A stretch of DNA of 64,000 nt from Ignavibacteriales bacterium (lineage in GTDB: Bacteria > Bacteroidota > Ignavibacteria > UBA10030), in the NCBI GenBank assembly GCA_037446575.1, contig JBBIII010000004.1:9583-73582 (forward strand), in the 5' to 3' direction. Under the pieces are notes generated by a model, which was not told the DNA's origin, made no database searches, and was given only the letters and a program-made list of their open reading frames with translations. A program made the position numbers and the translations under genes. Positions 1 to 15,049 of this stretch are shown here, in pieces (the stretch's first letter is position 1; every line of letters begins with the position of its first letter).

Positions 1-950
1 CAAAATGATCATATGAGTTTTCTTTTGAAGAATAGTTGTCAACACTTTTTCTAACGAGGCGGTTTCCGGCAAGAAGAAAGCGTCTCGTATCACAGAATCT
101 AAAGAAAAATTTGGCTGTAAATGTATATCGTGCTTGAAAATATCTTTAGTATATACAATACCTATGATGTTATCTATAGAATCGTTAAAAACTGGAAATC
201 GGGAATACTTGTGCTTTCTCATTATTGCAATATTATCTTTTACGGGGGCATGAACAGATAAGGCAATAATTTCTTTACGCGGTACCATCGCATGCCGTGC
301 CTGCTTCCGATAAAAATCTATCGCGTTAAGTGTAATCATTTTTGTGAGAGCCGAGCCGTGATGATCATGCGTAAGAAGGAGGCGCAGTTCTTCTTCGGAA
401 TGTTTTAACTCTGATTCGGTTACAGCGTGGATACCAAATATGCGAAGTATAATATTGGCTAATTCATTCAACGACCAAATTATCGGTTTGAAAACGACGG
501 AAAAAACCTTGAGTGGATACGCCACCCAGAGTGTAACTTTTTTTGCTTCAAGTATTGCCAACGATTTAGGGGCGAGTTCGCCGAGTACGATATGAAGAAA
601 AGTAATAATCGAAAATGCGAGTCCGAATGACACTGCATGCAAAATTTCAGAAGATTTAATTCCTATGTTGAAAAACAAAGGACGTAATTTATCGGCAATA
701 AGTGGTTCGCCAATCCAGCCGAGCGCAAGACTTGTCATTGTAATACCGAGCTGAGTAGCAGAAAGGCAAGCATTTAAGTTAGTTATAAGGCTTTTAGCTA
801 TTTTTGCGCGCCAATTTCCTTTTTGAACTAATGGCTCTATTTGCGTAAAGCGCACCTTAACAATTGCAAATTCTGCCGCAACAAAAAAACCGTTTAGAAA
901 AACAAAAAATAAAATTATTAATGCGTCGAATATATATTCCCAAATACTCA
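1..950 (-). CDS. CNNM/CorC-HlyC family transporter, DUF21 transmembrane domain (CBS/CorC part lies beyond the window start); partial, 5' end at 950
   Basis: The reverse-complement ATG at 948-950 opens MSIWEYIFDALIILFFVFLNGFFVAAEFAIVKVRFTQIEP..., a typical DUF21 N-terminus ('GFF.AAE.A'). The frame stays open to position 1 and is absent from the ORF track because it runs off the edge. Confidence 0.7.
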
Positions 951-1113
951 TCTAAGCTCCAATGGTAACTGTTACAATATAATCGTTTATGATAAAGGCT
1001 TCAAGAAACGAGATAGAAGCAAAAATGTTTGTTGAACAGAACAACTATTTTATTACGCTTCTAAAATTTTTATTCAAAAATTAATTTCGCCTTTACTTGA
1101 CTGCACGACAAAA

Positions 1114-1941
1114 ATGTCGTATCGTTTTTTAGGCAATATGAAATCGGTTTATAATATACAACCCCAGAAAACTGCAGTGTTTGATATAGAATCAGGATAC
1201 AAAGATGCAAACATTCAGATACATTCCAGCAGCATCATTCGAGCATTTACCGAGGAACCCGGCAAAATTTTTCTTCTCTATGGCGAAGCTGGAATATTTC
1301 AACTTTCGCTTCAAATGGCTTCGTTTGCAATGGCAAACGGAAATTCAATAGCCGTTGTTGACGGATGCAACCGATTTGATGCGCATGCGCTTTCGCGTTT
1401 TGCGCGCGCGCGTAAAATAGACCCCGACAAGTTTTTGGAAAGAATTTTTGTCTCGCGTGGTTTCACTTGCTATCAAATAGAGCAAGCAATTACACGCAAA
1501 CTTCCATCGTTTCTTGGTAAAATTAAATCAAACACGGCATTGATTTTTGGCGTGCTCGATACGCTTTACGATGAACAGGCCTCATTGCATGAAGCTCAGC
1601 AAATCTTACAAAGGATTTTGAATGCGTTTAAAAAAATGAAATCGAAAGGCGTATCGTTATTATTAGCATGCTCTGAACGTAAAGTAGAGCCGCCCGAACG
1701 CAATCAATTATTTGTTACGCTAAAAAGCAATGTTGATCGTGTGTATAAATTCGATATAGATAACAATGGCGCGCTTCGACTTTATTTAGAACCGCATCGA
1801 CTAGAACAAAATATCACAAAAGGAGCGTTAAGCAATGGGACGAACAGTGCCAACCTTTACCAATCTGATAGACGCAGAGCTAACAAGCTGGTCAAAGTTC
1901 CGGCGCGGACTGCGCAAAGAAGATCAGGATGTGTTCGATGA
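1114..1941 (+). CDS. RecA-fold protein with a degenerate P-loop (ImuA/SulA-like, ATPase-dead); 3' end uncertain
   Basis: The 275-aa ORF has 'FLLYGEAGIFQLSLQMAS' where RecA/RadA/KaiC proteins carry GxxGxGKT, so the Walker-A lysine is missing. It also has a RecA-like 'SIAVVDGCNRFDAHALSRFARARKIDPDKFLERIFVS' segment and a Walker-B-like 'ALIFGVLDTLY'. The last ~40 aa (…SDRRRANKLVKVPARTAQRRSGCVR) are Arg-rich and low-complexity, and overlap the next ORF, which has its own SD. Confidence 0.5.
   Translation: MSYRFLGNMKSVYNIQPQKTAVFDIESGYKDANIQIHSSSIIRAFTEEPGKIFLLYGEAGIFQLSLQMASFAMANGNSIAVVDGCNRFDAHALSRFARARKIDPDKFLERIFVSRGFTCYQIEQAITRKLPSFLGKIKSNTALIFGVLDTLYDEQASLHEAQQILQRILNAFKKMKSKGVSLLLACSERKVEPPERNQLFVTLKSNVDRVYKFDIDNNGALRLYLEPHRLEQNITKGALSNGTNSANLYQSDRRRANKLVKVPARTAQRRSGCVR
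1820..1825 (+). promoter_or_regulatory. Shine-Dalgarno AAGGAG 9 nt upstream of the ATG at 1835
   Basis: The sequence aaAAGGAGcgttaagcaATG is visible directly. Confidence 0.5.
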
Positions 1942-2089
1942 AATTTTCCGTGCGGCAAAATTGCACCTTGCTGAAAATTTTTATGCTATGCGCGCAGTGC
2001 CGTTCGAAAGTATGATGATGTCGATTATAATCGAACAGCAAAAAAAGATTAAGAAATTGGAAAAAGAAGTCGAGAGATTGAGATGTTGA
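1835..2089 (+). CDS. Small hypothetical protein (84 aa) with a C-terminal coiled coil, in the ImuA-like/PolB cassette
   Basis: The ORF is preceded by the SD at 1820-1825. Its sequence is non-repetitive with a K/E-rich helical tail (QQKKIKKLEKEVERL). It overlaps the 3' tail of the 1114..1941 ORF in another frame. Confidence 0.4.
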   Translation: MGRTVPTFTNLIDAELTSWSKFRRGLRKEDQDVFDEIFRAAKLHLAENFYAMRAVPFESMMMSIIIEQQKKIKKLEKEVERLRC

Positions 2090-2222: not shown

Positions 2223-4565
2223 ATGCTTCAATCCGCAATCTACAATCAAAAATTGCAGATCAAAAATCGTCAATCCATTTCTGCTTGGTTATTTGATGTT
2301 TATCCAAACGAACATGGCGTTACGCTTTGGTTTATAGATATGCAGGGAAATCGGTTGCGGTTCACACGTTCCTTCACACCCTCTTTTTTTCTGCATCTTA
2401 ACGCAACGGATATCAAACGCGCACAGGTTCTTATTCATTGTTCTCCTGTTCCCATTTCGCTCAAGTCGGCAACCCGCACTGAAATTTATTCGGGCGATTC
2501 AGTAAATGTGTTGCAGGTCTTTGTTCACAATCCGCTAAAATTTCGGGAAGCTGTATGGCATTTTGAAAAATTCTTTCCTCATTTTGCTTTCTTTAATTCA
2601 GACGTAGCGGTTGAACAGCAATTTTTGTACGAAACTCAATTATTCCCGCTCGGAATGTGCGAGGTTGAAGTCAACGAAAGAAACGAATTGCTTTCATGGC
2701 AATTGACCGACAACCGTGAAGCTTATGAATACGAACTTCCACCGCTTTCTATAATGCAATTGCGTAACAGCAACGATTTCGTTCCGCCGAAGTATCAGAA
2801 GTTTTTGCAGTTGGAAATCAGTTACGACGGACGAACGTATGCGTTGGAGCAAAACACGCCGCAAGAATTATTAGAATCATTCAACTGGCACCTATACCGA
2901 TGCGATCCCGATCTGCTTGTAACTGATTACGGCGATTCGGTGCTGATGCCAAAAATTGTCCAACTTGCAAAGCAGTATAATGTTCCGTTGCTTCTCAACC
3001 GCGATACTGCGGCGGCGTATCGCACAACAAAAGAATCTAGTTTTTTTCAGTACGGAAAAATTGTTCACAAGGATGGCGCTTTTACGCTTGCCGGGCGCTG
3101 GCATGTGGACGCGCATAATTCTTTCACAGTTACAGAAGCTGATTTAGAGGGATTGTTCGAGATGACACGTCTAACTCAAATGTGCGGTCAGCGGCAAGGG
3201 CGTGCAAGCATCGGTACTTCTATGTCTTCAATGCAACTTTCATGGGCTTATAGGAACAAAGTTTTGATTCCATCCAAAAAGCGCGAGCCGGAGGAATTCA
3301 AATCCGCCGCCACGCTTCTGCTTGCAGATAGAGGCGGACTTATTTTTAATCCGCCGCTCGGTTACCACGAAGAAGTTGCGGAATTAGATTTCGTTTCGAT
3401 GTATCCGAGCATTATGGTAAATCACAACGTCTCGCCAGAAACAATAAATTGCAGATGTTGCCGTAATAAACGAGTGCCTGAGCTTGATTATACAATTTGC
3501 GAAAAACGAATCGGTGTTGTGCCGGATACACTGCGCGCTGTAGTTGCCAAGCGTGCATACTACAAGCAGAAGAAAAAAGAATTCAAGGGAAAAGATGATG
3601 CGCTTTTTAAGCGTTATGACTGCAGACAAAACGCTCTCAAATGGATGCTTGTGAGCTGTTTTGGTTATCTTGGTTATAAGAACGCGCGCTTCGGCAGAAT
3701 AGAAGCGCATGAATCCATCAACGCATTTTCGCGCGATATGATTCTTATTGCAAAAGAAATTGCCGAAAGTCGCGGCTTTCAACTTCTTCACGCTATTATA
3801 GATTGTGTATGGCTTAAGAAACCGGGCGCAACTCAAACCGATTATGAAGAACTTGCACGCGAAATATCCACGCGAGTCGGAATAGATATTTCACTTGAAG
3901 GAATTTACAACTGGATACTTTTTCCCGCTTCAAAAACAGACCCTTACATAACAACAACAAATCATTATGTAGGATGGTATAAACATGGCGAAATAAAAAT
4001 GCGCGGTGTTGAAACACGCCGGCGCGATACTCCAAAGTTTATCAAAAACATGCAGAAATCTATGTTAGATAAAATGTCTACAGCTAAAAATACTGAAGAA
4101 CTCTCTTCGCTTGTTCCAGAAGTTTTAGAAGTAGCGCAAAACTTTATCTCAATTTTGCAAAGCGGCAGAGCTAACCCAATGGAGTTAGTGCTTAAGCGGC
4201 ACATCACCCGCGAAGCAGATGAATATCTCAACAACAGCATCAGCGCTATTGTCTCAAAAATGGTGGAAGATATGGGTGTGCATCTTTCGGCGGGAGAATC
4301 AATCGAATTCATAATACTCGACCAATCCGGTAAAAAGAAGCCCGAAAAAGCCAAACCGATTGCTCTTTACGCTTTTGAAGACGGCTACGACATCGAACAA
4401 TACACCGAGATGACTTTGCGCGCTATAGAAACCCTTTTACTGCCATTTGGATATGATGTTGAAAGACTAAAAACCCACTACAGCATTGGCAACAAGCCAA
4501 AGCGAAAGAAGATTGCTTCAACATCAAAAAAGCGCGAATTGCCGTTGTTTCAGATACAAATTTAG
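2223..4565 (+). CDS. polB: Family-B DNA polymerase (E. coli Pol II-like) with apparently inactivated 3'-5' exonuclease motifs
   Basis: Motif A is DFVSMYPSIMVNHN (DxxSLYPS). The motif B region is KWMLVSCFGYLGY. Blocks 'RAQVLIHC', 'YNVPLLLNRD' and 'VWLKKPGA' align to E. coli Pol II. The positions of Exo I (…SIMQLRN… instead of …SIDIET…) and Exo II (…DSVLMPKI… instead of …NxxxFD…) lack the acidic residues. There is no canonical YGDTDS; the best candidate is HAIIDCVWL. Confidence 0.8.
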   Translation: MLQSAIYNQKLQIKNRQSISAWLFDVYPNEHGVTLWFIDMQGNRLRFTRSFTPSFFLHLNATDIKRAQVLIHCSPVPISLKSATRTEIYSGDSVNVLQVFVHNPLKFREAVWHFEKFFPHFAFFNSDVAVEQQFLYETQLFPLGMCEVEVNERNELLSWQLTDNREAYEYELPPLSIMQLRNSNDFVPPKYQKFLQLEISYDGRTYALEQNTPQELLESFNWHLYRCDPDLLVTDYGDSVLMPKIVQLAKQYNVPLLLNRDTAAAYRTTKESSFFQYGKIVHKDGAFTLAGRWHVDAHNSFTVTEADLEGLFEMTRLTQMCGQRQGRASIGTSMSSMQLSWAYRNKVLIPSKKREPEEFKSAATLLLADRGGLIFNPPLGYHEEVAELDFVSMYPSIMVNHNVSPETINCRCCRNKRVPELDYTICEKRIGVVPDTLRAVVAKRAYYKQKKKEFKGKDDALFKRYDCRQNALKWMLVSCFGYLGYKNARFGRIEAHESINAFSRDMILIAKEIAESRGFQLLHAIIDCVWLKKPGATQTDYEELAREISTRVGIDISLEGIYNWILFPASKTDPYITTTNHYVGWYKHGEIKMRGVETRRRDTPKFIKNMQKSMLDKMSTAKNTEELSSLVPEVLEVAQNFISILQSGRANPMELVLKRHITREADEYLNNSISAIVSKMVEDMGVHLSAGESIEFIILDQSGKKKPEKAKPIALYAFEDGYDIEQYTEMTLRAIETLLLPFGYDVERLKTHYSIGNKPKRKKIASTSKKRELPLFQIQI

Positions 4566-4654: not shown

Positions 4655-5044
4655 ATGCATAAGTTAAAACTTCAACTACTTGATGAAAAGTTTGCAATCA
4701 GTATAATGCCGCAATTTGCCGAACTGCCATCGGTATTTACAAAAGGGGAGATGTGTTTTGTAATGCGGACAGATCGAGATTTGACTATTGTATCTCCAGA
4801 ATTTATGGCGCCAAATAATGTTCAACAAGAAGTAGGTTACCGTTGTATCCGTACAAACGATCAACACCCGCTAAATAGTATTGGTATTCTATCTTCGATT
4901 ACAAATCCTTTAGCTTCTGCAGGAATTAGTGTGTTCACCGTATCAACTTTTCACACAAATTATATATTTTTACTAGAAGAACATTTAGTACAGGCGACAC
5001 AGGTATTACAGCATGCTGGACATGAATTTGTTCACGAAGAGTAA
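4655..5044 (+). CDS. ACT domain-containing protein (ACT_7-like)
   Basis: 129 aa; a βαββαβ-type small-ligand-binding domain pattern is typical of this family. Calling it a separate gene is inference. Confidence 0.55.
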   Translation: MHKLKLQLLDEKFAISIMPQFAELPSVFTKGEMCFVMRTDRDLTIVSPEFMAPNNVQQEVGYRCIRTNDQHPLNSIGILSSITNPLASAGISVFTVSTFHTNYIFLLEEHLVQATQVLQHAGHEFVHEE

Positions 5045-5098: not shown

Positions 5099-5701
5099 TT
5101 ACTTCATTCTCTTTTTTAATTCTTCAGCAATATTTTCCAGCGTCATTCCTTGTTGACTTAAAAGAACTATTAAATGATATATTAAATCAGCAGTTTCTTC
5201 GGTCAGTCTTTTTTTATCGCTAAGCACAGCCGCAAGCGCGACTTCAACTCCCTCTTCGCCTATTTTTTGCGCAATGCGCGGAGTCCCTTCTTTGAAGAGT
5301 TTTGATGTGTACGATCCTTCTGGCAGATTTTCTTTCCTGCTCTTAATAATTTCTTCTAATCGGCAAAGAATTATTCCCACATCGGTTTTTTCATCTTCAC
5401 CAAAACAAGTAAATTGATTTGTGTGGCAAATGGGTCCGTGCGGAATAGCTTTTATTAAAAGAGAATCATTATCGCAATCTATTGATGCAGAAACAAACTC
5501 CAAATAATTACCAGAAGTTTCACCTTTTTGCCATAAACGCTGTTTAGTTCGGCTCCAGAAAGTAACTTTCTTATCGGCAAGTGTTTTCTCAAGCGCATCT
5601 TTATTCATAAAGCCGACCATCAGAACCTGATTTGTTCTCGAATCCTGTACAACTGCAGGAACAAATCCATTGAGCTTTTCGAAATTCAATTTTTCTATCA
5701 T
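5099..5701 (-). CDS. hisIE: Bifunctional phosphoribosyl-AMP cyclohydrolase / phosphoribosyl-ATP pyrophosphatase HisIE
   Basis: The HisI Zn-site 'CHTNQFTCFGE' sits in the N-terminal half and an HisE-like C-terminal half follows. It is the last gene of the his operon. Confidence 0.9.
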   Translation of the reverse strand: MIEKLNFEKLNGFVPAVVQDSRTNQVLMVGFMNKDALEKTLADKKVTFWSRTKQRLWQKGETSGNYLEFVSASIDCDNDSLLIKAIPHGPICHTNQFTCFGEDEKTDVGIILCRLEEIIKSRKENLPEGSYTSKLFKEGTPRIAQKIGEEGVEVALAAVLSDKKRLTEETADLIYHLIVLLSQQGMTLENIAEELKKRMK

Positions 5702-6453
5702 AGTCTCACCGGAATATTTTGTGAATGAAGATATGATTTTAATTCCGGAATCGGAATTTTTCCATAATGAAAAATACTTGCGGCAAGCACTGCATCTGCT
5801 TTTCCAAGAAGAATTGCATCTCTTACATGCTCCTTAGTCCCTGCGCCGCCGGAAGCAATGACTGGAACGGATATAATATTCGACAGCTCATTTAGCAAAT
5901 CTAAATCATAGCCAGATGTTGTTCCATCTCTATCCATCGATGTAACCAACAATTCTCCGGCTCCACGCTCCACAATTTCTCTTGCCCATTGAAGCGCATC
6001 GCGCCCTGTAGATTCTGTCCCGGCTTTTGTGAACACAATCCAATTTAAATCAATACGTTTTACATCAATTGCAACTACAACAGATTGAGAGCCGACTCGT
6101 TTGCTTGCTTCATTAACTAAGCTTGGTTTTGCGAGAGCGGCAGAATTTAATGAGACCTTATCAGCTCCCGCTTCTAGTGCGCGAGATACGTGTTCAACTG
6201 TACTGATTCCACCACCCACAGTGAAAGGAATTTGAATCGCTTCTGCAACACGCTCTACCATTTTTAAAAAAGTTGACCGTCCCTCTAAAGTTGCGCTAAT
6301 ATCGAGAAATACTAATTCATCTGCCCCCTCATCTGAATAACGCGCCGCTAATTCTACAGCATCGCCGGCATCTCGCAAGTTTAAAAAATTTGTCCCCTTG
6401 ACAGTGCGCCCGTCTTTTACATCCAAACATGGAATAATTCGTTTAGTCAGCAT
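5698..6453 (-). CDS. hisF: Imidazole glycerol phosphate synthase cyclase subunit HisF
   Basis: 'KRIIPCLDVKDGRTVKG' and (βα)8 phosphate-binding motifs are present. The gene overlaps hisIE by 4 nt. Confidence 0.95.
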   Translation of the reverse strand: MLTKRIIPCLDVKDGRTVKGTNFLNLRDAGDAVELAARYSDEGADELVFLDISATLEGRSTFLKMVERVAEAIQIPFTVGGGISTVEHVSRALEAGADKVSLNSAALAKPSLVNEASKRVGSQSVVVAIDVKRIDLNWIVFTKAGTESTGRDALQWAREIVERGAGELLVTSMDRDGTTSGYDLDLLNELSNIISVPVIASGGAGTKEHVRDAILLGKADAVLAASIFHYGKIPIPELKSYLHSQNIPVRL

Positions 6454-7175
6454 AAAGCTCCGTTAAATTTTGAAAGTTCCTCTAAAGGAATTTTTCCTTC
6501 ATAAATAGCTTTCCCTACAATGACTGCTGGAACATTACAATTTTTTAAATCCATTAAATCTTTTGTCGATGAAATTCCGCCGGATGCAATAAAAGTCAAA
6601 TCGGGAAATGCTTTTATCAAGTTGCTGTAGAGTTCAATATTTGCGCCGGTAAGCATTCCATCGCGCGAAATATCGGTGCAGATAAAAGTATTCGCTCTAC
6701 GTTTTTTTAAATCAAAAATAAAATCTGCCGGTGTGCGCTCGCTGTCTTCCAACCAACCGCTAATAGCAACTGATTCATTTTTAATATCCATCCCGATTAT
6801 AATTTTATCAGTTCCGAATTGATTTATCCAATACTCGACTAAGTCTGGTGACTTTGCCGCAACACTGCCAATAACAACACGCGTAACGCCAAGTTCAAGC
6901 AAGCGTTGAATGTCTTCGGTTGTTCTAATTCCTCCGCCGACTTCTATTTTTAAGTCTGGGATTGATAATAAGTTTTTTATAGAATCCCAATTAATGATTT
7001 TTTTTTCTTTTGCACCCTGCAAATCAACGACGTGCAAAAATGAGAAGCCAGATAATTTAAACTGAATCGCTCTATCATACGGCGAATCGGAATAGACAGT
7101 TTTTCGACTGTAATCACCTTGAGTTAGACGAACGCATTTGCCATCAAATATATCTATTGCTGGAATTACTAACAT
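6447..7175 (-). CDS. hisA: ProFAR isomerase HisA
   Basis: The 'MLVIPAIDIFDGKCVRL' N-terminus and 'GGGIR' are present; the gene sits between hisH and hisF. Confidence 0.9.
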   Translation of the reverse strand: MLVIPAIDIFDGKCVRLTQGDYSRKTVYSDSPYDRAIQFKLSGFSFLHVVDLQGAKEKKIINWDSIKNLLSIPDLKIEVGGGIRTTEDIQRLLELGVTRVVIGSVAAKSPDLVEYWINQFGTDKIIIGMDIKNESVAISGWLEDSERTPADFIFDLKKRRANTFICTDISRDGMLTGANIELYSNLIKAFPDLTFIASGGISSTKDLMDLKNCNVPAVIVGKAIYEGKIPLEELSKFNGALC

Positions 7176-7762
7176 AACTCTATAAAATTTTTTAGCAATT
7201 GAAGTCCGGCTTTTCCCGATTTTTCCGGATGAAATTGAACTCCATAAAAATTTTTATGTTTTATTGCAGAAGTGAACAGAACGTTATATTCTGTCGTTCC
7301 AATTGTATCTGAAACGACCGGCGCATAATAGGAATGAACAAAGTAAAAGTAATCTCCAGATTTAATGCCGGCAAATAAAGATGAACTATTTTTGTGCAAT
7401 ACCTGATTCCAACCCATATGAGGCGCTTTAATTTTGTTGTTTCCCTCATTAAATTTTTGATTTAATCCGGGAATAATTCCTAAACAGTCGGTATCGCGTT
7501 CCATTGTTCTTTTAAAAAGCAACTGCATACCAAGGCAGATACCTAAGAAAGGAACCTCTACTTCTCGTAACCAATCTTTCAACCCGGAGTTTGCGAGAGC
7601 ATTCATAGCGCTTCGTGCTTCACCGACTCCCGGGAAAAAAAGTTTTTCAGCTTTATCCAATTCGATCCTGTTGCACGAAATAAAATGTGGAACCTTCAGA
7701 CGGTTTAGCGCGTTGCTTACAGATCTAATATTTCCGGCACCGTAGTCTATTATTCCAATCAT
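7169..7762 (-). CDS. hisH: Imidazole glycerol phosphate synthase glutamine amidotransferase subunit HisH
   Basis: The class-I GATase pattern 'GICLGMQLL' and a 'HPE' catalytic triad are present. Confidence 0.9.
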   Translation of the reverse strand: MIGIIDYGAGNIRSVSNALNRLKVPHFISCNRIELDKAEKLFFPGVGEARSAMNALANSGLKDWLREVEVPFLGICLGMQLLFKRTMERDTDCLGIIPGLNQKFNEGNNKIKAPHMGWNQVLHKNSSSLFAGIKSGDYFYFVHSYYAPVVSDTIGTTEYNVLFTSAIKHKNFYGVQFHPEKSGKAGLQLLKNFIELC

Positions 7763-7808
7763 TAGTTATAAGCTTTCAGTATTCAGTTATCAGATTTCAG
7801 GTGTAAAA

Positions 7809-8906
7809 CTAAATGATTCCTTTTGTCGAAGGAATAATTTCGGATTGCTGTTCATTGCGAGATACCGCTTGCCGTAATGTTCTGGCAACCGATTTAAAAA
7901 TTGCTTCAATTTTATGGTGATCGTTTCTACCTTCAACTTTTATATGCAGATTTGCTCTAAGGCCATCAGCAAATGCTCTGAAAAAATCTTCAACAAGCTC
8001 TGTTGGAAGTTCGCCAACTTTTTCTCTATCAAATTTTGCTTCAAAGTAACAAAATGGTCTTCCGCCCAAATCAATTGCGACCTGAGCGAGAGATTCATCC
8101 ATCGGTAAAAGAAATCCATAACGTTCAATACCTTTTTTATCGCCAAGCGCTTGACGAATTGTTTCACCTAAAGCAAGCCCTGTATCTTCAACCGTATGGT
8201 GTTCATCAACTTTAAGATCTCCCTTTACAGAAATATTCATGTCAATTCCTGCATGCTTTGCGAGTTGCTCAAGCATATGATCAAAAAATCCGATTCCAGA
8301 TTTAATGTAAGACTCTCCAAATCCGTCAAGAGTAACTTCGACAACAATATCTGTTTCTTTGGTTTTGCGCTGAACAATAGCTGAACGCGATTGTTTTATG
8401 ATGAACCGACATCCATCAAGAAAACTTGTTGCTTTAAAATCCGCTTTTGTTGAATCATCTTTCGTTAATCTGATAGACTTACATCCGAGATTCTGCGCAA
8501 GCTCAACATCTGTCTCTCTATCGCCAAATACAAATGATCGTTTGATATCAACATTCTTTTCTTTAAGAAACTTATCTACAAGTCCTGTCTTAGGTTTACG
8601 GCAATTGCAATTATCTTTTGCGCTATGCGGACATATCAAAATATAAGAAAACTTAATTCCCTCGCCCTCTAGCAATCTGATTAATTTACTCTGAACGTGA
8701 TCGTATGCAGACTGCGGATATTTCGGTGTTCCTAAATTATCTTGGTTAGTAACCATCACAAGATTATAACCAGCTTGTTTAAGTAATTGCAGTCCCTGAA
8801 TTGCGCCGGGAATCATTTCCAGTTTTTCGAGCGTATCAATCTGTTCGTCAGGCGGCTCTACTATTATAGTCCCATCCCGGTCTAAAAAAACTACTCTCAT
8901 CTGCAA
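7809..8906 (-). CDS. hisB: Bifunctional histidinol-phosphatase / imidazoleglycerol-phosphate dehydratase HisB
   Basis: An N-terminal HAD phosphatase domain (FLDRDGTI…TNQ) is followed by a C-terminal IGPD domain (…KTKETDI…DEHHTVEDTG…). Confidence 0.9.
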   Translation of the reverse strand: MQMRVVFLDRDGTIIVEPPDEQIDTLEKLEMIPGAIQGLQLLKQAGYNLVMVTNQDNLGTPKYPQSAYDHVQSKLIRLLEGEGIKFSYILICPHSAKDNCNCRKPKTGLVDKFLKEKNVDIKRSFVFGDRETDVELAQNLGCKSIRLTKDDSTKADFKATSFLDGCRFIIKQSRSAIVQRKTKETDIVVEVTLDGFGESYIKSGIGFFDHMLEQLAKHAGIDMNISVKGDLKVDEHHTVEDTGLALGETIRQALGDKKGIERYGFLLPMDESLAQVAIDLGGRPFCYFEAKFDREKVGELPTELVEDFFRAFADGLRANLHIKVEGRNDHHKIEAIFKSVARTLRQAVSRNEQQSEIIPSTKGII

Positions 8907-9943
8907 TACTCCTTTATTGCTTGAATTAGCAAAGAGTTTTCTTCAGGCGTGCCAACTGTTATGCGCAAACAATTTTGCAGAAGTGGCTCATTGCTTCTGT
9001 TACGCACGATTATATTTCGTTCAGCCAGGTAACGATAAAGCGCATTTGCATCTTTACATCGCGCCACTAAAAAATTTGCATCTGACGGAAAGACTTGCTC
9101 AACGCAAGATATACTTTTTAGCTGATTAGTTAAATTAGCTCGTTCTTTTATAATCGCTTCGATTTTATTTCTTGCTTCATTTTCTTTCTGCAAAGCTTCG
9201 ATAGCCATTTTACTTGTGAGTGCATTTATATTGTATGGAGCTTTAACTTTCAAAAAATACGAAATCACATTTTTATCGGCAATTGCGTAACCAAGCCGTA
9301 TCCCAGCCAATCCCCATGCCTTTGATAGCGTTCTCATTACAATCAGATTCGGGATTGAAAGAACCTGAGAGCCAAGCGATGCAGTTTTAGCAAAGTCTAT
9401 ATAAGCTTCATCAACTACTACAATTGCTCCCAAATTGCACAATTCGAGAATATCCTCCGTCCTCAATAAATTAGATGTTGGATTGTTTGGAGAACAGCAG
9501 AATATAAGTTTTGTTGATGGATCAAACTGTTGTTTAACTTTTGTTAAATCAATTTGAAAATCTTTTGTAAGCAAACATGAGCGTACATTCACATTTTGAA
9601 TATTTGCCGCTACCCGATACATTCCGTATGTTGGCTCGAGCAATAAAACGGAATCTTTTTTCGGCTCACAAAATATCCGCATAAGCAAATCTATTACTTC
9701 ATCTGAACCGACGCCGACAAAGACATTATCCATTGTAACCATACTGCGTTCTGCAAGAAGCGAACGAAGTTCACGTTGAAAAGGATCGGGATAACGATGA
9801 AGCATTATAGATTCGCTTTCAATAACGCTCCCGAAAGAATTCTCGTTAGCATCCAACAGTACTCCGGTCAAATAATCTTGACGCGCGCTGTGATATGGCT
9901 TTAATGCACGAATATTTTCACGAACTAAAAAATTTATATCCAT
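8897..9943 (-). CDS. hisC: Histidinol-phosphate aminotransferase HisC
   Basis: A class-II aminotransferase fold with a 'SKAWGLAGIRLGY' PLP-lysine region; its position in the operon fits. Confidence 0.85.
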   Translation of the reverse strand: MDINFLVRENIRALKPYHSARQDYLTGVLLDANENSFGSVIESESIMLHRYPDPFQRELRSLLAERSMVTMDNVFVGVGSDEVIDLLMRIFCEPKKDSVLLLEPTYGMYRVAANIQNVNVRSCLLTKDFQIDLTKVKQQFDPSTKLIFCCSPNNPTSNLLRTEDILELCNLGAIVVVDEAYIDFAKTASLGSQVLSIPNLIVMRTLSKAWGLAGIRLGYAIADKNVISYFLKVKAPYNINALTSKMAIEALQKENEARNKIEAIIKERANLTNQLKSISCVEQVFPSDANFLVARCKDANALYRYLAERNIIVRNRSNEPLLQNCLRITVGTPEENSLLIQAIKEYCR

Positions 9944-9951
9944 AAATATTT

Positions 9952-11244
9952 TTACTTTATTTCCAGACGCGAAGTAACTGCACGACTATGCGCTTGCAGT
10001 CCTTCTGATTTTGCTAATATCGTAAGCGCTGGAGCGAGTCTTTCTAAACCATTTTTTGTTAAGAGCTGAAATGTTATATTTTTTTGAAAACTGTCTAAAG
10101 AAACACCGCTTGCCCAGCGCGCAGTGCCGGAGGTTGGCAATGTATGATTTGTGCCAGAAGCATAATCGCCCGCCGTTACAGGTGAAAACTCACCAACAAA
10201 CACAGACCCTGCATTTTTGATAAACGGGACAAACGATTCTGGATTATTGATATTTAGAATCAAATGCTCCGGCGCATATTGATTAGAAAAATCTATTGCC
10301 GATTGAAGCGAGTCAGTTACAAGAATATAACCTTGTTCTATTGATTTCTTTGCAATGTCAATACGAGGAAATTCATTAATGCGAATTAATAACTCTTGTA
10401 CAACAGCTTTAGCAAACGATTCGTCTGGAGTAACAAGTATTGATTGTGCGTCTGGATCATGCTCTGCCTGCGAAATTAAATCATAAGCGGTAACATCTGC
10501 ACGCGCCGATGAATCTGCAATTATTAATACTTCTGATGGTCCTGCTAACAAGTCGATAGCGGTTCCATACGGATCGGTTGAAATAAATTGTTTTGCGGAT
10601 GCAACAAATTTATTTCCGGGACCAAATATTTTTTCAACTTTTGGAATTGTTTCGGTTCCATAAGCCATTGCGGCAATTGCTTGAGCGCCTCCAATTTTAT
10701 AAATTTCTTTTATGCCGATTATTGAAGCGGCAGATAAAACATGAGGATCAATCGAACCATTCGATTTAGGAGGAGAGCAAAGAATAATTCTCGAACATCC
10801 TGCAAGTATTGCTGGAATTCCGAGCATCAACACTGTAGAAGGCAGTGGAGCCGAACCCGCTGGCACATATAGTCCTACTGATTCAATTGGTCTCGATTCG
10901 CGCCAGCAAGTTACGCCGGACGTTGTTTCGATTTTCTGAGAATTGATTTTCTGTGATTCGTGAAATATTCGAATATTAGAAACTGCAACTTTAATAGCAG
11001 ATATAAATTCGTTTGATACTGAATTCAGCGCTAACTTTACTTCATCTTCAGAAACACGAAACTCGTTTATATCAATGTCATCAAATTTCTTAGAATAATT
11101 TCTTGCCGCCTGATCTCCATGATTTTTTACATCAATACAAATATTCCTAACAGTTGAAATGACTTCATATTGCAACTGACTTGGCCTTGTAAGAAGATTC
11201 TGAAGTTCTTCTTTGGTCAATCTATTTTCATAAAATATTTTCAT
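9952..11244 (-). CDS. hisD: Histidinol dehydrogenase HisD
   Basis: 430 aa with HisD signature segments (…GPGNKFVA…, …SQAEHDP…). Confidence 0.9.
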   Translation of the reverse strand: MKIFYENRLTKEELQNLLTRPSQLQYEVISTVRNICIDVKNHGDQAARNYSKKFDDIDINEFRVSEDEVKLALNSVSNEFISAIKVAVSNIRIFHESQKINSQKIETTSGVTCWRESRPIESVGLYVPAGSAPLPSTVLMLGIPAILAGCSRIILCSPPKSNGSIDPHVLSAASIIGIKEIYKIGGAQAIAAMAYGTETIPKVEKIFGPGNKFVASAKQFISTDPYGTAIDLLAGPSEVLIIADSSARADVTAYDLISQAEHDPDAQSILVTPDESFAKAVVQELLIRINEFPRIDIAKKSIEQGYILVTDSLQSAIDFSNQYAPEHLILNINNPESFVPFIKNAGSVFVGEFSPVTAGDYASGTNHTLPTSGTARWASGVSLDSFQKNITFQLLTKNGLERLAPALTILAKSEGLQAHSRAVTSRLEIK

Positions 11245-12116
11245 CGGATAATGGTTTCAATAGGGACAACTATAATATCGCTTGCGCCGGCTTTTTTTAA
11301 TTTTTCCATTACATCCCAGAAAATATCCTCGGCAACTACAGAGTGTATTGCTACCATTCCTGTATCTGCCAGCGGCATAACTGTCGGACTTTTCAGACTC
11401 GGTATAACTTTTTTCAATTTTTCTACAGACGATGATGGAGCATTCATCATAAGATAACGTTTACCGCGTGCTTCTTGCGAGCCGCGCACACGAATCATCA
11501 ACCGGTCAATTAATTGACGTTTCTTTTTATCTTGCATCGCTTCTCGGTTAGCAACAAGAACTGCTTCAGATTGCAGCACGGCGCAAATTGTTCTAAGATT
11601 GTTCATCTTTGCGGTCGTACCTGTGGAAACTAAGTCGCAAATAGCGTCGGCAACATTAAGACTGGGAGCAAGTTCAACTGAACCGCTTAGTTCTATAATT
11701 TCAGCTTTCACTTTATGCGCCTTCAGAAAAGATTTAAGTATTACCGGATACGTTGTTCCTATGCGCTTATACTTTAAATCGGAAATATTTCTAATTTTTG
11801 ATCGCTGAGGCACGCTGATCATTAATTTGCATTCGCCAAAGCCGAGATGCGAAAGCAACTGCACTCGGGCTTTTCGTTCAAGCAATATGTTTTCCCCTGC
11901 TATTCCAAGATCAGCAACGCCATCTTGCACATATTCAGGGATATCGTCATCTCTAATTGCCAGAACATCTAATTCATAGTTGCGGCAAGGCGAATATAGA
12001 CTTTGTCTTTGAAATTCAAAATCCAATCCGCAGGCGCGTAACAACGCAACTGAATCGTCGGTTAATCGTCCGTTGCGCTGTATTGCTATTTTCATTCTTC
12101 CGTTAGTCGCTAACAT
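11241..12116 (-). CDS. hisG: ATP phosphoribosyltransferase HisG (long form)
   Basis: 291 aa; the HisG catalytic region is followed by a C-terminal regulatory domain. It is the first his gene. Confidence 0.9.
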   Translation of the reverse strand: MLATNGRMKIAIQRNGRLTDDSVALLRACGLDFEFQRQSLYSPCRNYELDVLAIRDDDIPEYVQDGVADLGIAGENILLERKARVQLLSHLGFGECKLMISVPQRSKIRNISDLKYKRIGTTYPVILKSFLKAHKVKAEIIELSGSVELAPSLNVADAICDLVSTGTTAKMNNLRTICAVLQSEAVLVANREAMQDKKKRQLIDRLMIRVRGSQEARGKRYLMMNAPSSSVEKLKKVIPSLKSPTVMPLADTGMVAIHSVVAEDIFWDVMEKLKKAGASDIIVVPIETIIR

Positions 12117-14458: not shown

Positions 14459-15049
14459 ATGTCTGACGAAGAAAAAGTACAAGTAGACATAATGGGATTA
14501 TCGAGTAGTCAATCTAGCGGAGGCGCGTATGCATTGATTTTAAAAGAGGTCAATGGCGATAGACGCTTGCCAATAATTATAGGCGCATTCGAGGCGCAGT
14601 CGATTGCGTTAGAAATTGAAGGCATTAAACCGCCTCGTCCTCTTACGCACGATTTACTGAAGAATGTTATTGAATTGTTAGGCGGGGATTTAGTTAATGT
14701 GTTTATAAATGATCTTCGAGACGGCACTTTTTTTGCGCGCCTCGAACTTGAAACGCAAGGAATTGATTCGAGACCGAGCGATGCAATTGCTTTAGCTGTA
14801 AGATTTGGCGTTCCAATTTATGTTGCTGAGAAGGTCATGGACGAGGCATCGTTTATAGCAGAAAGTGAAGAAAGCGAAAAGCAAACCGGCTCAATTCCCA
14901 AGATTGGCCAAAAAGAAGCAGATAAACCAAAACTTACAGAACGCGAGCAACTTGAGAAAAAACTAAATGACGCGATCTTAAAAGAAGATTACGAAAAAGC
15001 GGCGCAACTTCGTGATGAACTAAAAAAATTACAAGCGCGTAATTCCTAA
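14459..15049 (+). CDS. Bifunctional nuclease (BFN/DUF151) family protein with a C-terminal UVR motif
   Basis: A BFN-like core (…PIIIGAFEAQSIALEI…THDL…) is followed by a C-terminal 'DYEKAAQLRDELKKLQ' UvrB/UvrC-type helix. It starts 3 nt after etfA. Confidence 0.7.
   Translation: MSDEEKVQVDIMGLSSSQSSGGAYALILKEVNGDRRLPIIIGAFEAQSIALEIEGIKPPRPLTHDLLKNVIELLGGDLVNVFINDLRDGTFFARLELETQGIDSRPSDAIALAVRFGVPIYVAEKVMDEASFIAESEESEKQTGSIPKIGQKEADKPKLTEREQLEKKLNDAILKEDYEKAAQLRDELKKLQARNS

What the first reader, a model, noticed from the sequence alone, without database searches (positions are those of the whole stretch)
2223..4565. Pol II-like polymerase appears exonuclease-dead and lacks a canonical motif C (YGDTDS)
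The protein is clearly colinear with E. coli Pol II: blocks RAQVLIHC, YNVPLLLNRD, DFVSMYPS (motif A), K…FGYLGY (motif B) and VWLKKPGA are conserved. At the Exo I position it reads …LSIMQLRNSND… where Pol II has …SIDIET…, so the D and E are lost. At the Exo II position it reads …YGDSVLMPKI… where Pol II has …N..QFDLRML…. Upstream of the conserved VWLK, where Pol II has YGDTDSTF, it reads HAIIDC, so at most one Asp of the DTD pair is retained. An exo-minus PolB is what error-prone synthesis would need. A damaged motif C would instead argue for a non-catalytic, ImuB-like role. My Pol II reference is from memory, so exact residue correspondences need a proper alignment.
Basis: partly seen in the sequence, partly recalled or inferred. 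Interest (0 to 1): 0.7.

Follow-up and report, generated by a model that had tools for sequence, protein, structure and literature searches.

The report
Bacterial PolB2 translesion polymerase operon
The odd-looking polymerase belongs to the already described PolB2 family, repair polymerases that lack proofreading and have an altered active-site motif but are active in the archaeal members tested, and it sits in that family's usual three-gene operon, so the finding is real but ordinary.

Summary
ORF 2223..4565 (780 aa) is a full-length family B polymerase. It has no exonuclease carboxylates at Exo I or Exo II, and it reads HAIIDC where canonical enzymes have YxDTDS.

The interpretation needs correcting in two ways.
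- It is not a Pol II-type enzyme. It scores 395 bits on archaeal-type PolB models against 54 bits on Pol II models. It carries the published PolB2 signature (YxDTD replaced by HxxxD, plus a D[K/R]GG loop).
- It lies in the published bacterial PolB2 "mutasome" operon, in the published order. Upstream are an inactivated RadA/Rad51 homologue (iRadA, 1138..1941) and a small protein starting MGRT (PPB2, 1835..2089).

The retained Asp527 aligns with the metal-binding second Asp of motif C. It is invariant in all 52 aligned homologues, as are motif A Asp389, steric-gate-position Tyr394, fingers Arg444 and Lys448, and Lys473. The exonuclease-site positions vary freely.

Sulfolobus Dpo2 has the same HxxxD motif. 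Published work shows it is a robust, exonuclease-free extender of mismatches and lesions. An ImuB-like non-catalytic role is therefore unlikely.

A conserved palindromic operator in the promoter suggests SOS-type control. No bacterial PolB2 biochemistry turned up in my literature searches.

Novelty: already known. Interest: low.

The parts
1097..1125 (+). Promoter-like site: -35 TTGACT, 17-nt spacer, -10 TATCGT. The perfect palindrome ACGACAAAAATGTCGT (1105..1120) lies between the hexamers and is a probable operator for a LexA/CI-like repressor.
   Evidence: The promoter scan gives 9 of 12 matches. The palindrome is the only match in the window. The same ACGACA-N4-TGTCGT, with at most 1 mismatch, lies just upstream of iRadA in about 25 of 68 related loci. 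It also flanks the HTH_3 + Peptidase_S24 repressor gene in those relatives. Function is inferred, not shown.
1138..1941 (+). iRadA: an inactivated RadA/Rad51-family protein of 267 aa. The mechanical ORF and the public annotation start at ATG 1114, which lies inside the operator. ATG 1138 is the more likely start.
   Evidence: Sequence matches to RadA/Dmc1 are weak: E 0.003-0.007, E 0.035, and E 0.003 with a profile. The AlphaFold2 core (residues 23-221) has pLDDT mostly 85-95. The top 50 Foldseek PDB hits are all Rad51/RadA/DMC1 chains, mostly ATPase-core constructs, at E about 1e-7. The Walker A position reads YGEAGIFQLS, with no GK[ST]. There is no N-terminal helical domain. The tail after residue 222 is disordered in the model.
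1835..2089 (+). PPB2: an 84-aa PolB2-associated protein with the N-terminal 'MGRT' arm. It overlaps the iRadA ORF by 107 nt in another reading frame. The public annotation of the source contig does not call it.
   Evidence: It starts MGRTVPTFTN. An ORF with this same N-terminus lies upstream of PolB2 in 48 related loci. The MGRT motif, the size of about 90 aa and the position between iRadA and PolB2 are the published PPB2 features (PMC11791011). It matches phrog_26583 over its full length, E 6e-13. The gene call is missing in L070.
2223..4565 (+). PolB2: a family B DNA polymerase of 780 aa with an exonuclease-like domain that has no active site.
   Evidence: The AlphaFold2 model has pLDDT 87.6 and pTM 0.83. 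Foldseek gives full-length matches to Thermococcus 9°N and KOD PolB at TM 0.70-0.73.
2757..2774 (+). Exo I-equivalent QLRNSN (residues 179-184). The Asp and Glu of DxE are replaced by Arg181 and Ser183.
   Evidence: hhalign against E. coli Pol II SIDIET, supported by the secondary-structure order. These positions vary across homologues: R/Y/S/K/F at 181 and K/A/S/E at 183. HMMER offers an alternative placement at residues 158-162, which also has no acidic pair.
2928..2945 (+). Exo II-equivalent YGDSVL (residues 236-241). The catalytic Asp is replaced by Leu241.
   Evidence: Position 241 is Ile or Leu in 51 of 52 homologues.
3123..3137 (+). Exo III-equivalent FTVTE (residues 301-305). YxxxD has become FxxxE.
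   Evidence: hhalign against Pol II YNLKD. Phe is present in 47 of 52 and Glu in 48 of 52 homologues.
3327..3338 (+). D(K/R)GG loop motif (D369-R370-G371-G372), a PolB2-specific motif.
   Evidence: D369 is invariant in 52/52, and position 370 is Lys or Arg in 52/52. The motif follows a lower-confidence loop in the model (pLDDT 66-74 for residues 351-370). It corresponds to the published D(K/R) motif, 253-DK-254 in S. islandicus PolB2, which is modelled as contacting the PPB2 arm (PMC11791011).
3387..3410 (+). Motif A, DFVSMYPS (residues 389-396). Asp389 aligns with the metal-binding Asp and Tyr394 with the steric-gate Tyr.
   Evidence: It aligns with DFRSLYPS and DYKSLYPS. D389 and Y394 are invariant in 52/52.
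3552..3566 (+). Fingers residues R444-A-Y-Y-K448, which align with the 'RQKIK' basic pair of archaeal PolB.
   Evidence: HMMER alignment to Pyrococcus PolB. Both are invariant in 52/52. The triphosphate-binding role is from my own knowledge of KOD and RB69 structures.
3639..3677 (+). Motif B, KWMLVSCFGYLGY (residues 473-485). Lys473 is kept. The canonical Asn is replaced by an invariant Val477.
3789..3806 (+). Motif C, HAIIDC (residues 523-528). This is the PolB2 'HxxxD' form of YxDTD. Asp527 aligns with the metal-binding second Asp.
   Evidence: H523 and D527 are invariant in 52/52. The same motif form was found in about 140 of 149 distant representatives. HxxxD is the published PolB2 signature (PMC8764526), and S. 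islandicus has 401-IID-403 (PMC11791011).
3951..3968 (+). KKRY-equivalent TTTNHY (residues 577-582). The lysines are lost and Tyr582 is kept.
   Evidence: It aligns with TKKKY of archaeal PolB and KKRY of Pol II. Y582 is invariant in 52/52 and N580 in at least 90%.
4533..4550 (+). C-terminal RELPLF (residues 771-776), a candidate beta-clamp-binding motif in a disordered tail.
   Evidence: Close relatives end in Q[E/D]LPLF or KQIPLF. The tail (residues 758-780) has pLDDT below 50. E. coli Pol II ends in QLGLF. Bacterial PolB2 or iRadA is reported to carry such a motif (PMC11791011). Clamp binding was not tested.

Best explanation
The gene encodes the catalytic subunit of a bacterial PolB2 'mutasome'. 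This is an archaeal-derived family B polymerase that has lost proofreading but probably keeps polymerase chemistry.

**Shown by sequence or model**
- The fold is a complete PolB.
- The exonuclease pocket lacks its carboxylates.
- The polymerase site keeps motif A Asp389, the second motif C Asp527, Tyr394, Arg444, Lys448 and Lys473. An invariant His523 stands where the canonical Tyr is.
- It is encoded in the order iRadA-PPB2-PolB2.

**Inferred from published work on archaeal PolB2 (Dpo2) and on AlphaFold models of the complex**
- One PolB2, one ATPase-dead iRadA and a PPB2 trimer assemble. The PPB2 MGRT arm inserts between PolB2 and iRadA, close to the modelled DNA.
- The complex is recruited to the beta clamp through the C-terminal RELPLF tail.
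- It extends mismatched or lesion-opposed primer ends without excising them, which fixes damage-induced mutations.

**Inferred from the conserved operator**
- Transcription is probably repressed by a LexA/CI-like XRE-S24 repressor bound at ACGACAAAAATGTCGT in the promoter, and is released after DNA damage.
For: **Family assignment**
- NF004416 and NF004418 (archaeal-type PolB) score 395 and 382 bits. Pol II models score 54 bits or less.
- The best PDB matches by sequence are archaeal PolBs, E 1e-46.
- The model has pLDDT 87.6. Foldseek gives TM 0.70-0.73 to 9°N and KOD polymerases over the full length.

**Signature**
- HxxxD, D[KR]GG and the KWMLV(S/T)xFGY motif B are present here.
- They are also present in a 34%-identical archaeal homologue (L065) and a 33%-identical Saprospirales homologue (L064).
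- HxxxD was found in about 140 of the best 149 cluster representatives.

**Active-site conservation**
- D389, Y394, R444, K448, K473, H523, D527 and Y582 are each invariant in 52/52 homologues. The exonuclease-equivalent positions vary.

**Operon**
- A PPB2 ORF starting MGRTVPTFTN lies upstream of PolB2 in 48 related loci.
- iRadA has a Rad51/RadA fold and a dead P-loop.

**Regulation**
- The operator palindrome is conserved. An adjacent S24 repressor gene is present in 21 related loci.

**Literature**
- Dpo2, with HxxxD, is a robust polymerase with no exonuclease activity and works as a mismatch and lesion extender (PMC8764526).
- Dpo2 is required for damage-induced mutagenesis (PMC7390963).
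- The iRadA-PPB2-PolB2 complex models, the MGRT arm, the clamp motifs and the lexA association are described in PMC11791011.
- Bacterial group G2 is equated with PolB2 in PMC12926913.
Against: - My literature searches found no biochemical or genetic study of a bacterial PolB2. Activity is extrapolated from crenarchaeal enzymes that are only about 30-40% identical at best. I could not obtain the Dpo2 sequence to align it directly.
- The complex is known only from published AlphaFold models. I could not model the complex here.
- The repressor gene is not in this 64-kb window. Damage induction is an inference from a conserved palindrome.
- The clamp motif starts with Arg where relatives have Gln.
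- Motif B Asn (Val here) and the KKRY lysines are also changed. I cannot judge the consequences of those changes.
Confidence: 0.85

Rival explanations
1. The protein is a non-catalytic scaffold, ImuB-like or an 'inactivated polymerase'. It would bind DNA, the clamp and its partners but would not synthesise DNA, because motif C is damaged.
For: - The first Asp of DTD, the motif C Tyr, the motif B Asn and the KKRY lysines are all replaced.
- This was the published view of PolB2 up to 2014 (PMC4104785).
- iRadA, the partner protein, is itself an inactivated enzyme.
Against: - The residues aligned with those that do the chemistry are all kept and are invariant in 52/52 homologues: D389, D527, Y394, R444, K448 and K473. 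A scaffold would not need them. The truly dead exonuclease site shows what relaxed positions look like in the same alignment.
- Sulfolobus Dpo2, with the identical IID/HxxxD motif, is about as active as the replicase Dpo1 (PMC8764526).
Confidence: 0.07
2. The protein is a diverged orthologue of E. coli Pol II (bacterial group G1) that has recently lost proofreading.
For: - It is colinear with Pol II over 545 aligned columns at 97.7% hhalign probability.
- It shares 'VPLLLNRD' with 'LPLRLGRD' and shares 'VWLK'.
- The C-terminal LPLF resembles QLGLF of Pol II.
Against: - Identity is only 19-23%. BLASTP gives E 1e-6 over 173 residues.
- Pol II NCBIfam models score 54 bits or less against cut-offs of 570-1435 bits.
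- Archaeal PolBs match far better.
- The accompanying iRadA and PPB2 genes and the HxxxD and D[KR]GG motifs are PolB2 features. Pol II works as a single subunit (PMC11791011).
- The substitutions are ancient and family-wide, not recent.
Confidence: 0.03
3. The polymerase belongs to a mobile element or virus (casposon, pipolin or prophage) rather than being a chromosomal repair enzyme.
For: - PHROGs holds families that match all three proteins: phrog_262, phrog_16666 and phrog_26583.
- PolB2 was transferred horizontally from archaea to bacteria (PMC11791011).
- Some homologues carry inteins.
Against: - The flanking genes are housekeeping genes: a CNNM/CBS transporter, an ACT-domain protein and the his operon. 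The rest of the window is ordinary chromosome.
- G+C shows no step across the operon.
- No integrase, Cas1 or terminal-protein gene was seen near the operon.
- The operon sits in differing chromosomal contexts across 60-odd Ignavibacteriota genomes at 60-85% identity, which is consistent with vertical inheritance.
Confidence: 0.03

Closest known systems
Bacterial PolB2 (B-family group G2) mutasome operon iRadA-PPB2-PolB2 (Timinskas, Timinskas & Venclovas 2025, PMC11791011; PMC12926913; first noted in bacteria by Rogozin 2008 and Makarova 2014, PMC4104785)
   Same: - Gene order is iRadA-PPB2-PolB2.
- PPB2 starts with MGRT.
- iRadA has no N-terminal domain and no ATPase site.
- PolB2 has an exonuclease-like domain without an active site, the first Asp of DxD replaced, a D(K/R) loop motif, and a candidate beta-clamp motif at the C-terminus of one partner.
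- An S24 (LexA-like) repressor gene is nearby in relatives. A DUF72 gene lies two genes upstream on the source contig.
   Different: Nothing essential differs. In this genome the repressor gene is not linked to the operon. iRadA overlaps PPB2 by 107 nt out of frame instead of abutting it or being fused to it. The clamp-like motif begins with Arg rather than Gln.
Sulfolobus (Saccharolobus) islandicus and solfataricus Dpo2 (archaeal PolB2), the only biochemically characterised members (PMC8764526, PMC7390963)
   Same: - Motif C is HxxxD, with Ile-Ile-Asp.
- The Exo motifs are lost.
- It has iRadA and PPB2 partners.
- Regulation by DNA damage is expected.
   Different: - Dpo2 is the smallest PolB2 and its exonuclease domain is largely deleted. 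The window protein keeps a full-size, confidently folded exonuclease-like domain (pLDDT about 90).
- Dpo2 uses PCNA and Orc1-2 regulation rather than the beta clamp and an S24 repressor.
- Dpo2 comes from a thermophile, whereas this protein comes from an uncultured Ignavibacteriaceae genome assembled from a metagenome.
- I did not align the Dpo2 sequence itself.
Eukaryotic Pol zeta (Rev3-Rev7 with Pol31/Pol32)
   Same: It is a multisubunit B-family polymerase without proofreading that extends from mismatched or lesion-opposed termini. This is a functional analogy drawn in PMC8764526 and PMC11791011.
   Different: Pol zeta has different accessory subunits. As far as I know it keeps a canonical motif C. 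It is not a specific relative.
E. coli Pol II (PolB, group G1)
   Same: It is a bacterial, SOS-linked B-family polymerase with a C-terminal clamp motif, and it is colinear in fold with the window protein.
   Different: Pol II has an intact DEDDy exonuclease (D156, E158, D229, Y331 and D335 in ORF numbering), has YGDTDS, and works as a single subunit. Identity is only 19-23%.
ImuA-ImuB-DnaE2 and Pol V (UmuD'2C-RecA) mutasomes
   Same: The architecture is analogous: a translesion polymerase, a RecA-family protein and a small accessory subunit, under SOS control.
   Different: The polymerase families are unrelated (C and Y). In those systems the non-catalytic member is ImuB, not the polymerase. 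Here the inactivated partner is the RadA homologue.

Membership tests
PolB2 (archaeal PolB2 / bacterial group G2) | Complete family B polymerase fold (N-terminal, exonuclease-like, palm, fingers and thumb domains). | tested here: met
   The AlphaFold2 model has pLDDT 87.6 and pTM 0.83. Foldseek gives TM 0.70-0.73 over about 760 residues of 9°N, KOD and Pab PolB. Pfam DNA_pol_B matches at E 8e-38.
PolB2 (archaeal PolB2 / bacterial group G2) | Motif C YxDTD replaced by HxxxD (first Asp lost, His in place of Tyr, second Asp kept). | tested here: met
   H523-A-I-I-D527 is aligned by HMMER, BLASTP and hhalign. It is invariant in 52/52 homologues. The definition is from PMC8764526 and PMC11791011.
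PolB2 (archaeal PolB2 / bacterial group G2) | Exonuclease motifs deleted or lacking their catalytic residues. | tested here: met
   Exo I maps to R181/S183 or, alternatively, to residues 158-162. The Exo II Asp maps to L241. Exo III YxxxD maps to FxxxE. Pfam reports no exonuclease-domain match.
PolB2 (archaeal PolB2 / bacterial group G2) | Conserved D(K/R) motif in a flexible loop before motif A. | tested here: met
   D369-R370-G-G is present. D369 is invariant in 52/52 and position 370 is Lys or Arg in 52/52. The preceding loop has lower model confidence.
PolB2 (archaeal PolB2 / bacterial group G2) | Groups phylogenetically with PolB2 rather than with PolB1, PolB3 or Pol II. | tested here: inconclusive
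Indirect support: nearly all of the best 149 representatives carry HxxxD. An archaeal homologue at 34% identity shares the signature. Archaeal-type NCBIfam models score far above the Pol II models.
PolB2 (archaeal PolB2 / bacterial group G2) | Polymerase active, no 3'-5' exonuclease activity, proficient mismatch and lesion extension. | not testable with these tools
   This needs biochemistry. It is known only for Sulfolobus Dpo2 (PMC8764526).
PolB2 mutasome operon | Three co-oriented adjacent genes in the bacterial order iRadA-PPB2-PolB2. | tested here: met
   The genes are at 1138(1114)..1941, 1835..2089 and 2223..4565, all on the + strand. The same arrangement is seen in roughly 35-48 related loci.
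PolB2 mutasome operon | PPB2: a helical protein of about 90 aa with the conserved N-terminal MGRT arm. | tested here: met
   The 84-aa ORF starts MGRTVPTFTN. That N-terminus is identical across relatives. Helical structure and trimer formation were not tested.
PolB2 mutasome operon | iRadA: a Rad51/RadA ATPase-core fold without the N-terminal domain and without ATPase-site residues. | tested here: met
   The top 50 Foldseek hits are all Rad51/RadA/DMC1. The profile against PDB finds RadA at E 0.003. The Walker A position reads YGEAGIFQLS. Only about 22 disordered residues precede the core.
PolB2 mutasome operon | A beta-clamp-binding motif at the C-terminus of PolB2 or of iRadA. | tested here: inconclusive
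   PolB2 ends ...KKRELPLFQIQI. Relatives have Q[ED]LPLF or KQIPLF. This resembles QLxLF, but Gln is replaced by Arg here and no profile search or complex model was run. The iRadA tail has no such motif.
PolB2 mutasome operon | Physical heteropentamer of PolB2, iRadA and three PPB2. | not testable with these tools
   No multimer modelling was available. The complex is known only from published AlphaFold models (PMC11791011).
PolB2 mutasome operon | DNA-damage-responsive regulation (association with lexA in bacteria). | tested here: inconclusive
   A conserved palindrome lies between -35 and -10. An HTH_3 + Peptidase_S24 repressor gene is adjacent in 21 relatives but is absent from this window. 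Expression was not tested.
E. coli Pol II family (group G1) | Intact DEDDy exonuclease site and YGDTDS motif C. | tested here: not met
E. coli Pol II family (group G1) | Reaches the NCBIfam Pol II model cut-offs. | tested here: not met
   Scores are 54, 28 and 23.5 bits against cut-offs of 570, 1103 and 1435 bits.
Catalytically dead polymerase homologue (ImuB-like role) | Loss of the metal-binding carboxylates of the palm domain. | tested here: not met
   Asp389 (motif A) and Asp527 (motif C, second Asp) are present and invariant in 52/52 homologues.

The most novel reading that the evidence does not exclude
In Ignavibacteriota the PolB2 operon may belong to a lineage-specific SOS-type circuit that has not been described. 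The repressor would be a self-cleaving XRE-S24 protein, CI-like rather than a canonical winged-helix LexA. It would bind the 16-bp palindrome ACGACA-N4-TGTCGT, which overlaps the promoters of its own gene and of iRadA.

In this genome the repressor gene has moved away from the operon while a perfect operator remains.

A more speculative add-on, at 5% or less: the conserved out-of-frame overlap of about 100 nt between iRadA and PPB2 could allow a frameshifted iRadA-PPB2 fusion like the gene fusions seen in other bacteria.
Probability: 0.45. Interest if true: 0.3.

Novelty: already known. Interest (0 to 1): 0.2.

Why it matters
**Annotation.** Public records call this gene only 'DNA polymerase II' or 'DNA polymerase domain-containing protein'. 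They call iRadA 'hypothetical' and do not call PPB2 at all on this contig. All three can be named correctly.

**Biology.** The case shows that a 'broken' catalytic motif can be a family signature and not a sign of inactivation. Only the second Asp of motif C is retained, and it is invariant.

**Open question.** The bacterial branch of PolB2 appears never to have been tested at the bench. It is widespread in Ignavibacteriota and in Leptospira, which is cultivable. Whether bacteria use a B-family, Pol zeta-like extender mutasome alongside or instead of Pol V or ImuABC therefore remains open and testable. This window adds no evidence on that beyond what comparative genomics has already published.

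Tried and rejected
- **Direct alignment with S. islandicus Dpo2.** I could not obtain its sequence. The database tools return unnamed relatives. I relied on motif descriptions in PMC8764526 and PMC11791011 and on an archaeal homologue, L065.
- **Residue-level 3D superposition on Pol II or KOD.** The tools return scores only, not coordinates. The Exo I placement therefore rests on hhalign plus the order of secondary-structure elements. HMMER against Deep Vent gives a conflicting placement at residues 158-162, which I judged less likely.
- **Lookup of the window ORF.** The look-up of encoding contigs on the window ORF found nothing. The identical protein P0001 did work.
- **PADLOC.** The only hit was to an intein-containing PolB 'homing endonuclease' model. 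It matches the polymerase part and I dismissed it as irrelevant.
- **Repressor in the window.** tblastn found no hit for the S24 repressor.
- **Second operator in the window.** None was found with up to 2 mismatches. A single 16-mer match at that mismatch level is not statistically remarkable by itself (1.2 expected). Its weight comes from conservation of sequence and position across loci.
- **Published SOS box for Ignavibacteria/Chlorobi.** One literature search found nothing relevant.
- **FxxA motif.** I considered whether F359-K-S-A362 is a Rad51-type FxxA motif that binds iRadA. The Phe is not conserved in the Leptospira/Saprospirales clade, so I make no claim.
- **iRadA tail.** I considered whether the iRadA tail that overlaps PPB2 is functional. 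It is disordered in the model, varies in length (0, 38-44 or 83-107 nt of overlap), and its stop codon is set by conserved PPB2 codons. It is probably incidental.

Full report
**1. What is there**

ORF 2223..4565 (+ strand, 780 aa) is intact. Pfam finds only the polymerase domain of family B, at residues 336-717, E 8e-38.

NCBIfam places it nearest the archaeal-type 'type B DNA-directed DNA polymerase' models. NF004416 scores 395 bits and NF004418 scores 382 bits, both below their cut-offs. The three E. coli-type Pol II models reach only 54, 28 and 23.5 bits.

The best solved structures by sequence are Pyrococcus and Thermococcus PolB, E about 1e-46. An AlphaFold2 model built on a 52-sequence alignment is confident, with pLDDT 87.6 and pTM 0.83. 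It matches 9°N, KOD and P. abyssi polymerases over their whole length at TM 0.70-0.73. The N-terminal, exonuclease-like, palm, fingers and thumb domains are therefore all present.

The window comes from contig CAYNSK010000002.1 of assembly GCA_964400055.1. Its closest relatives are Ignavibacteriota/Bacteroidota genomes assembled from metagenomes, at 60-86% identity.

**2.

I fetched E. coli polB (b0060) and translated it. Numbering below is that of the translated ORF.

| Motif | Canonical residue(s) | Window residue(s) |
|---|---|---|
| Motif C | Y543-G-D545-T-D547-S (Pol II), YIDTDG (archaeal) | H523-A-I525-I-D527-C |
| Motif A | D419 (Pol II) | D389 in DFVSMYPS |
| Motif B | KxxxNSxYG | K473-W-M-L-V477-S-C-F-G (Lys kept, Asn to Val) |
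| Exo II | F228-D229 (Pol II) | V240-L241 |
| Exo III | Y331-N-L-K-D335 (Pol II) | F301-T-V-T-E305 |
| KKRY | KKRY (Pol II), TKKKY (archaeal) | TTTNHY, Tyr582 kept |

For motif C, BLASTP, the hhalign profile comparison (97.7% probability, 545 columns) and HMMER against archaeal PolB all agree. The first Asp is Ile525 and the second Asp is kept as Asp527.

For Exo I the two methods disagree.
- HMMER against Deep Vent aligns FDIET with residues 158-162.
- The predicted secondary structure shows a hairpin at 145-161, then strand 1 (177-182), strand 2 (197-201), strand 3 (204-208) and helix A (213-227). That order fits the hhalign placement.
- In either case there is no acidic pair.

Two details are wrong: the N-terminal block 'RAQVLIHC' lies outside every significant alignment, and overall identity to Pol II is only 19-23%.

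**3. It is a family signature, not decay**

I aligned 52 homologues. They span Ignavibacteriota (70-84% identity) and a Leptospira/Spirochaetia/Saprospirales clade (29-35% identity).

These residues are invariant in 52/52:
- D369 of a D[K/R]GG loop
- D389 and Y394 of motif A
- R444 and K448 in the fingers
- K473 of motif B
- H523 and D527 of motif C
- Y582

R444 and K448 align with the 'RQKIK' basic pair of archaeal PolB. As far as I know, that pair contacts the triphosphate of the incoming nucleotide.

The exonuclease-equivalent positions are not conserved. Position 181 is R/Y/S/K/F, position 183 is K/A/S/E, and position 241 is I/L.

A full HMMER scan of 1.84 billion cluster representatives found 795 proteins at E ≤ 1e-30. 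A pattern search found H-x-x-x-D[S/C/A/G] in about 140 of the best 149 (31-43% identity), found nothing in the other 9, and none of the motifs found reads DxD.

This pattern shows purifying selection on the polymerase site and none on the exonuclease site.

**4. The neighbours identify the system**

Two ORFs lie directly upstream on the same strand.

*ORF 1835..2089 (84 aa).* It begins MGRTVPTFTN. An ORF with this same N-terminus precedes the polymerase gene in 48 related loci.

*ORF 1114/1138..1941.* Its sequence similarity to RadA/Dmc1 is only weak: E 0.003-0.007, E 0.035, and E 0.003 with a 33-sequence profile. The AlphaFold2 core, residues 23-221, has pLDDT mostly 85-95. It returns Rad51/RadA/DMC1 chains, mostly ATPase-core constructs, as all 50 top Foldseek hits at E about 1e-7. 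The Walker A position reads YGEAGIFQLS, with no GK[S/T]. There is no N-terminal helical domain.

**5. Comparison with the literature**

These features match the published PolB2 system.
- PolB2 was noted in 2008-2014 as an 'inactivated' archaeal PolB. It is linked to an inactivated RadA and to arCOG07300, it occurs in some bacteria, and lexA is sometimes in the operon (PMC4104785).
- Feng et al. showed that S. islandicus Dpo2 is the polymerase required for damage-induced mutagenesis (PMC7390963).
- They also showed that purified Dpo2 is a robust polymerase with no exonuclease activity. It is accurate on undamaged DNA and efficient at extending mismatches and lesion-opposed termini. They define the PolB2 motif C as 'YxDTD mutated into HxxxD'. 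They note that the second Asp is the metal ligand and that bacterial G2 proteins share the Exo II and PolC changes (PMC8764526).
- Timinskas et al. (PMC11791011) describe several further points:
  - the operon, which in bacteria occurs only in the order iRadA-PPB2-PolB2;
  - the PPB2 'MGRT' N-terminal arm;
  - the D(K/R) loop motif, 253-DK-254 in S. islandicus;
  - the 401-IID-403 motif C of S. islandicus;
  - beta-clamp motifs at the C-terminus of either iRadA or PolB2;
  - enrichment of lexA, SRAP and DUF72 genes nearby;
  - AlphaFold models of a PolB2-iRadA-(PPB2)3 heteropentamer.
- A 2026 survey lists this group as bacterial B-family group G2 (PMC12926913).

The window protein even reads I-I-D, as the Sulfolobus enzyme does. 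Its C-terminus...RELPLFQIQI, resembles a clamp motif. Relatives have Q[E/D]LPLF or KQIPLF. On the source contig a DUF72 gene lies two genes upstream. In the Saprospirales homologue L064 an SRAP gene follows PolB2.

**6. Regulation (inferred)**

A promoter-like site lies at 1097-1125: -35 TTGACT, a 17-nt spacer, and -10 TATCGT. The perfect palindrome ACGACAAAAATGTCGT (1105..1120) sits between the hexamers.

The same palindrome, with at most one mismatch, lies in the same position upstream of iRadA in about 25 related loci. It occurs again next to a gene for an HTH_3 + Peptidase_S24 protein, which is a LexA/CI-type self-cleaving repressor. That gene is adjacent to the operon in 21 loci.

The repressor gene is absent from this 64-kb window. 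One 16-mer match in the window is not significant by itself. The argument rests on conservation across loci.

The ATG at 1114, which is used by the public annotation, lies inside the operator and upstream of the -10 hexamer. The relatives point to ATG 1138 as the true start.

**7. Mechanism proposed**

*Shown*
- The protein has a PolB fold with a dead exonuclease pocket.
- It has a conserved one-Asp motif C and an otherwise complete polymerase site.
- It lies in an operon with iRadA and PPB2.

*Inferred from homology and published models*
- The three proteins assemble into a mutasome.
- The complex is tethered to the beta clamp.
- It is induced after DNA damage.
- It extends primer termini that a proofreading polymerase would reject.

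The ImuB-like non-catalytic alternative is disfavoured by the invariance of every catalytic residue and by the activity of Dpo2.

**8. Context**

The operon is flanked by a CNNM/CBS transporter gene (minus strand, 4..951, running off the window start), an ACT-domain gene and the his operon. The rest of the window is housekeeping: ETF, PBP1, PTS enzyme I, Obg, FabF and sensor kinases. G+C is unremarkable. Nothing suggests a mobile element.

**9. Verdict**

It is wrong on the family name and on the 'non-catalytic' branch.

This is a typical member of a described family. The only things I could add are small. They are the candidate operator and unlinked repressor, the un-annotated PPB2 gene, the likely mis-called iRadA start, and the out-of-frame overlap between iRadA and PPB2.

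My literature searches found no experimental study of a bacterial PolB2. That leaves some residual interest.

Noticed in passing
window 1105..1120 (within promoter-like site 1097..1125): The perfect 16-bp palindrome ACGACAAAAATGTCGT lies between the -35 and -10 hexamers. It is conserved in sequence and position upstream of iRadA in about 25 related loci, and it occurs next to an XRE-S24 repressor gene in relatives. It is probably an SOS-type operator. One literature search found no published motif for this lineage.
   Followed up: partly
window 1114 vs 1138: The ATG at 1114, used as the iRadA start by the ORF finder and by the public annotation, lies inside the operator palindrome and upstream of the -10 hexamer. 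Relatives start about 24 nt further downstream, so ATG 1138 (MKSVYNIQ...) is the more likely start.
   Followed up: partly
window 1835..1941: The iRadA ORF runs 107 nt into the PPB2 ORF in a different reading frame. The overlap is 83-107 nt in most close relatives, 38-44 nt in three, and absent in others. The overlapping iRadA tail is disordered in the model (pLDDT about 40). It is probably incidental, although iRadA-PPB2 gene fusions exist in other bacteria.
   Followed up: partly
L070 (source contig CAYNSK010000002.1), locus coordinates about 2613..2867, which is window 1835..2089: The public gene calls for this contig list iRadA and PolB2 but have no gene for PPB2. The likely reason is that PPB2 is overlapped by the longer iRadA ORF.
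   Followed up: yes
L005 3153..3800 (minus strand) and 20 other related loci: A gene for an HTH_3 (XRE) + Peptidase_S24 LexA/CI-like repressor is transcribed divergently from the operon in most of these loci and lies downstream of PolB2 in L038 and L060. No homologue is present in the 64-kb window.
   Followed up: yes
L064 2351..3133: In the Saprospirales homologue the PolB2 gene is followed immediately by an SRAP gene (SOS response associated peptidase), Pfam E 4e-47. This agrees with the published enrichment of SRAP near polB2.
   Followed up: yes
L070 1..357 (outside the window, two genes upstream of iRadA): A DUF72 gene lies close to the operon on the source contig. DUF72 is one of the families reported to be enriched near polB2.
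   Followed up: no
representatives P0245, P0274, P0284, P0288, P0294, P0295, P0306, P0312: Several PolB2 homologues are 1200-1300 aa long, and their match to the query is split at about residue 480, inside motif B. This suggests inteins inserted at that site.
   Followed up: no
window 1835..2089 and 1138..1941: PPB2 matches phrog_26583 (E 6e-13, full length) and phrog_30126. iRadA matches phrog_16666 (E 1e-11). All three are PHROG families of 'unknown function', and they could now be named.
   Followed up: no
L017, L055, L057, L058 (about 30-80 nt upstream of the PolB2 match): In these relatives the operator palindrome lies directly upstream of PolB2, and no MGRT ORF was found upstream. This may be a different operon arrangement or a diverged PPB2.
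   Followed up: no
window 4..951 (minus strand), 4655..5044 (+), 5099..12116 (minus strand): The flanking genes are a CNNM/CBS (CorC/HlyC-type) transporter that runs off the window start, a small ACT-domain protein, and a his operon made up of hisIE, hisF, hisA, hisH, hisB, hisC, hisD and hisG.
   Followed up: partly
window 14459..15049 and 18527..19399: A bifunctional-nuclease-domain protein with a UVR motif and an AP_endonuc_2 (xylose isomerase-like TIM barrel) protein lie about 10-15 kb from the operon. There is no evidence that they are linked to it.
   Followed up: no
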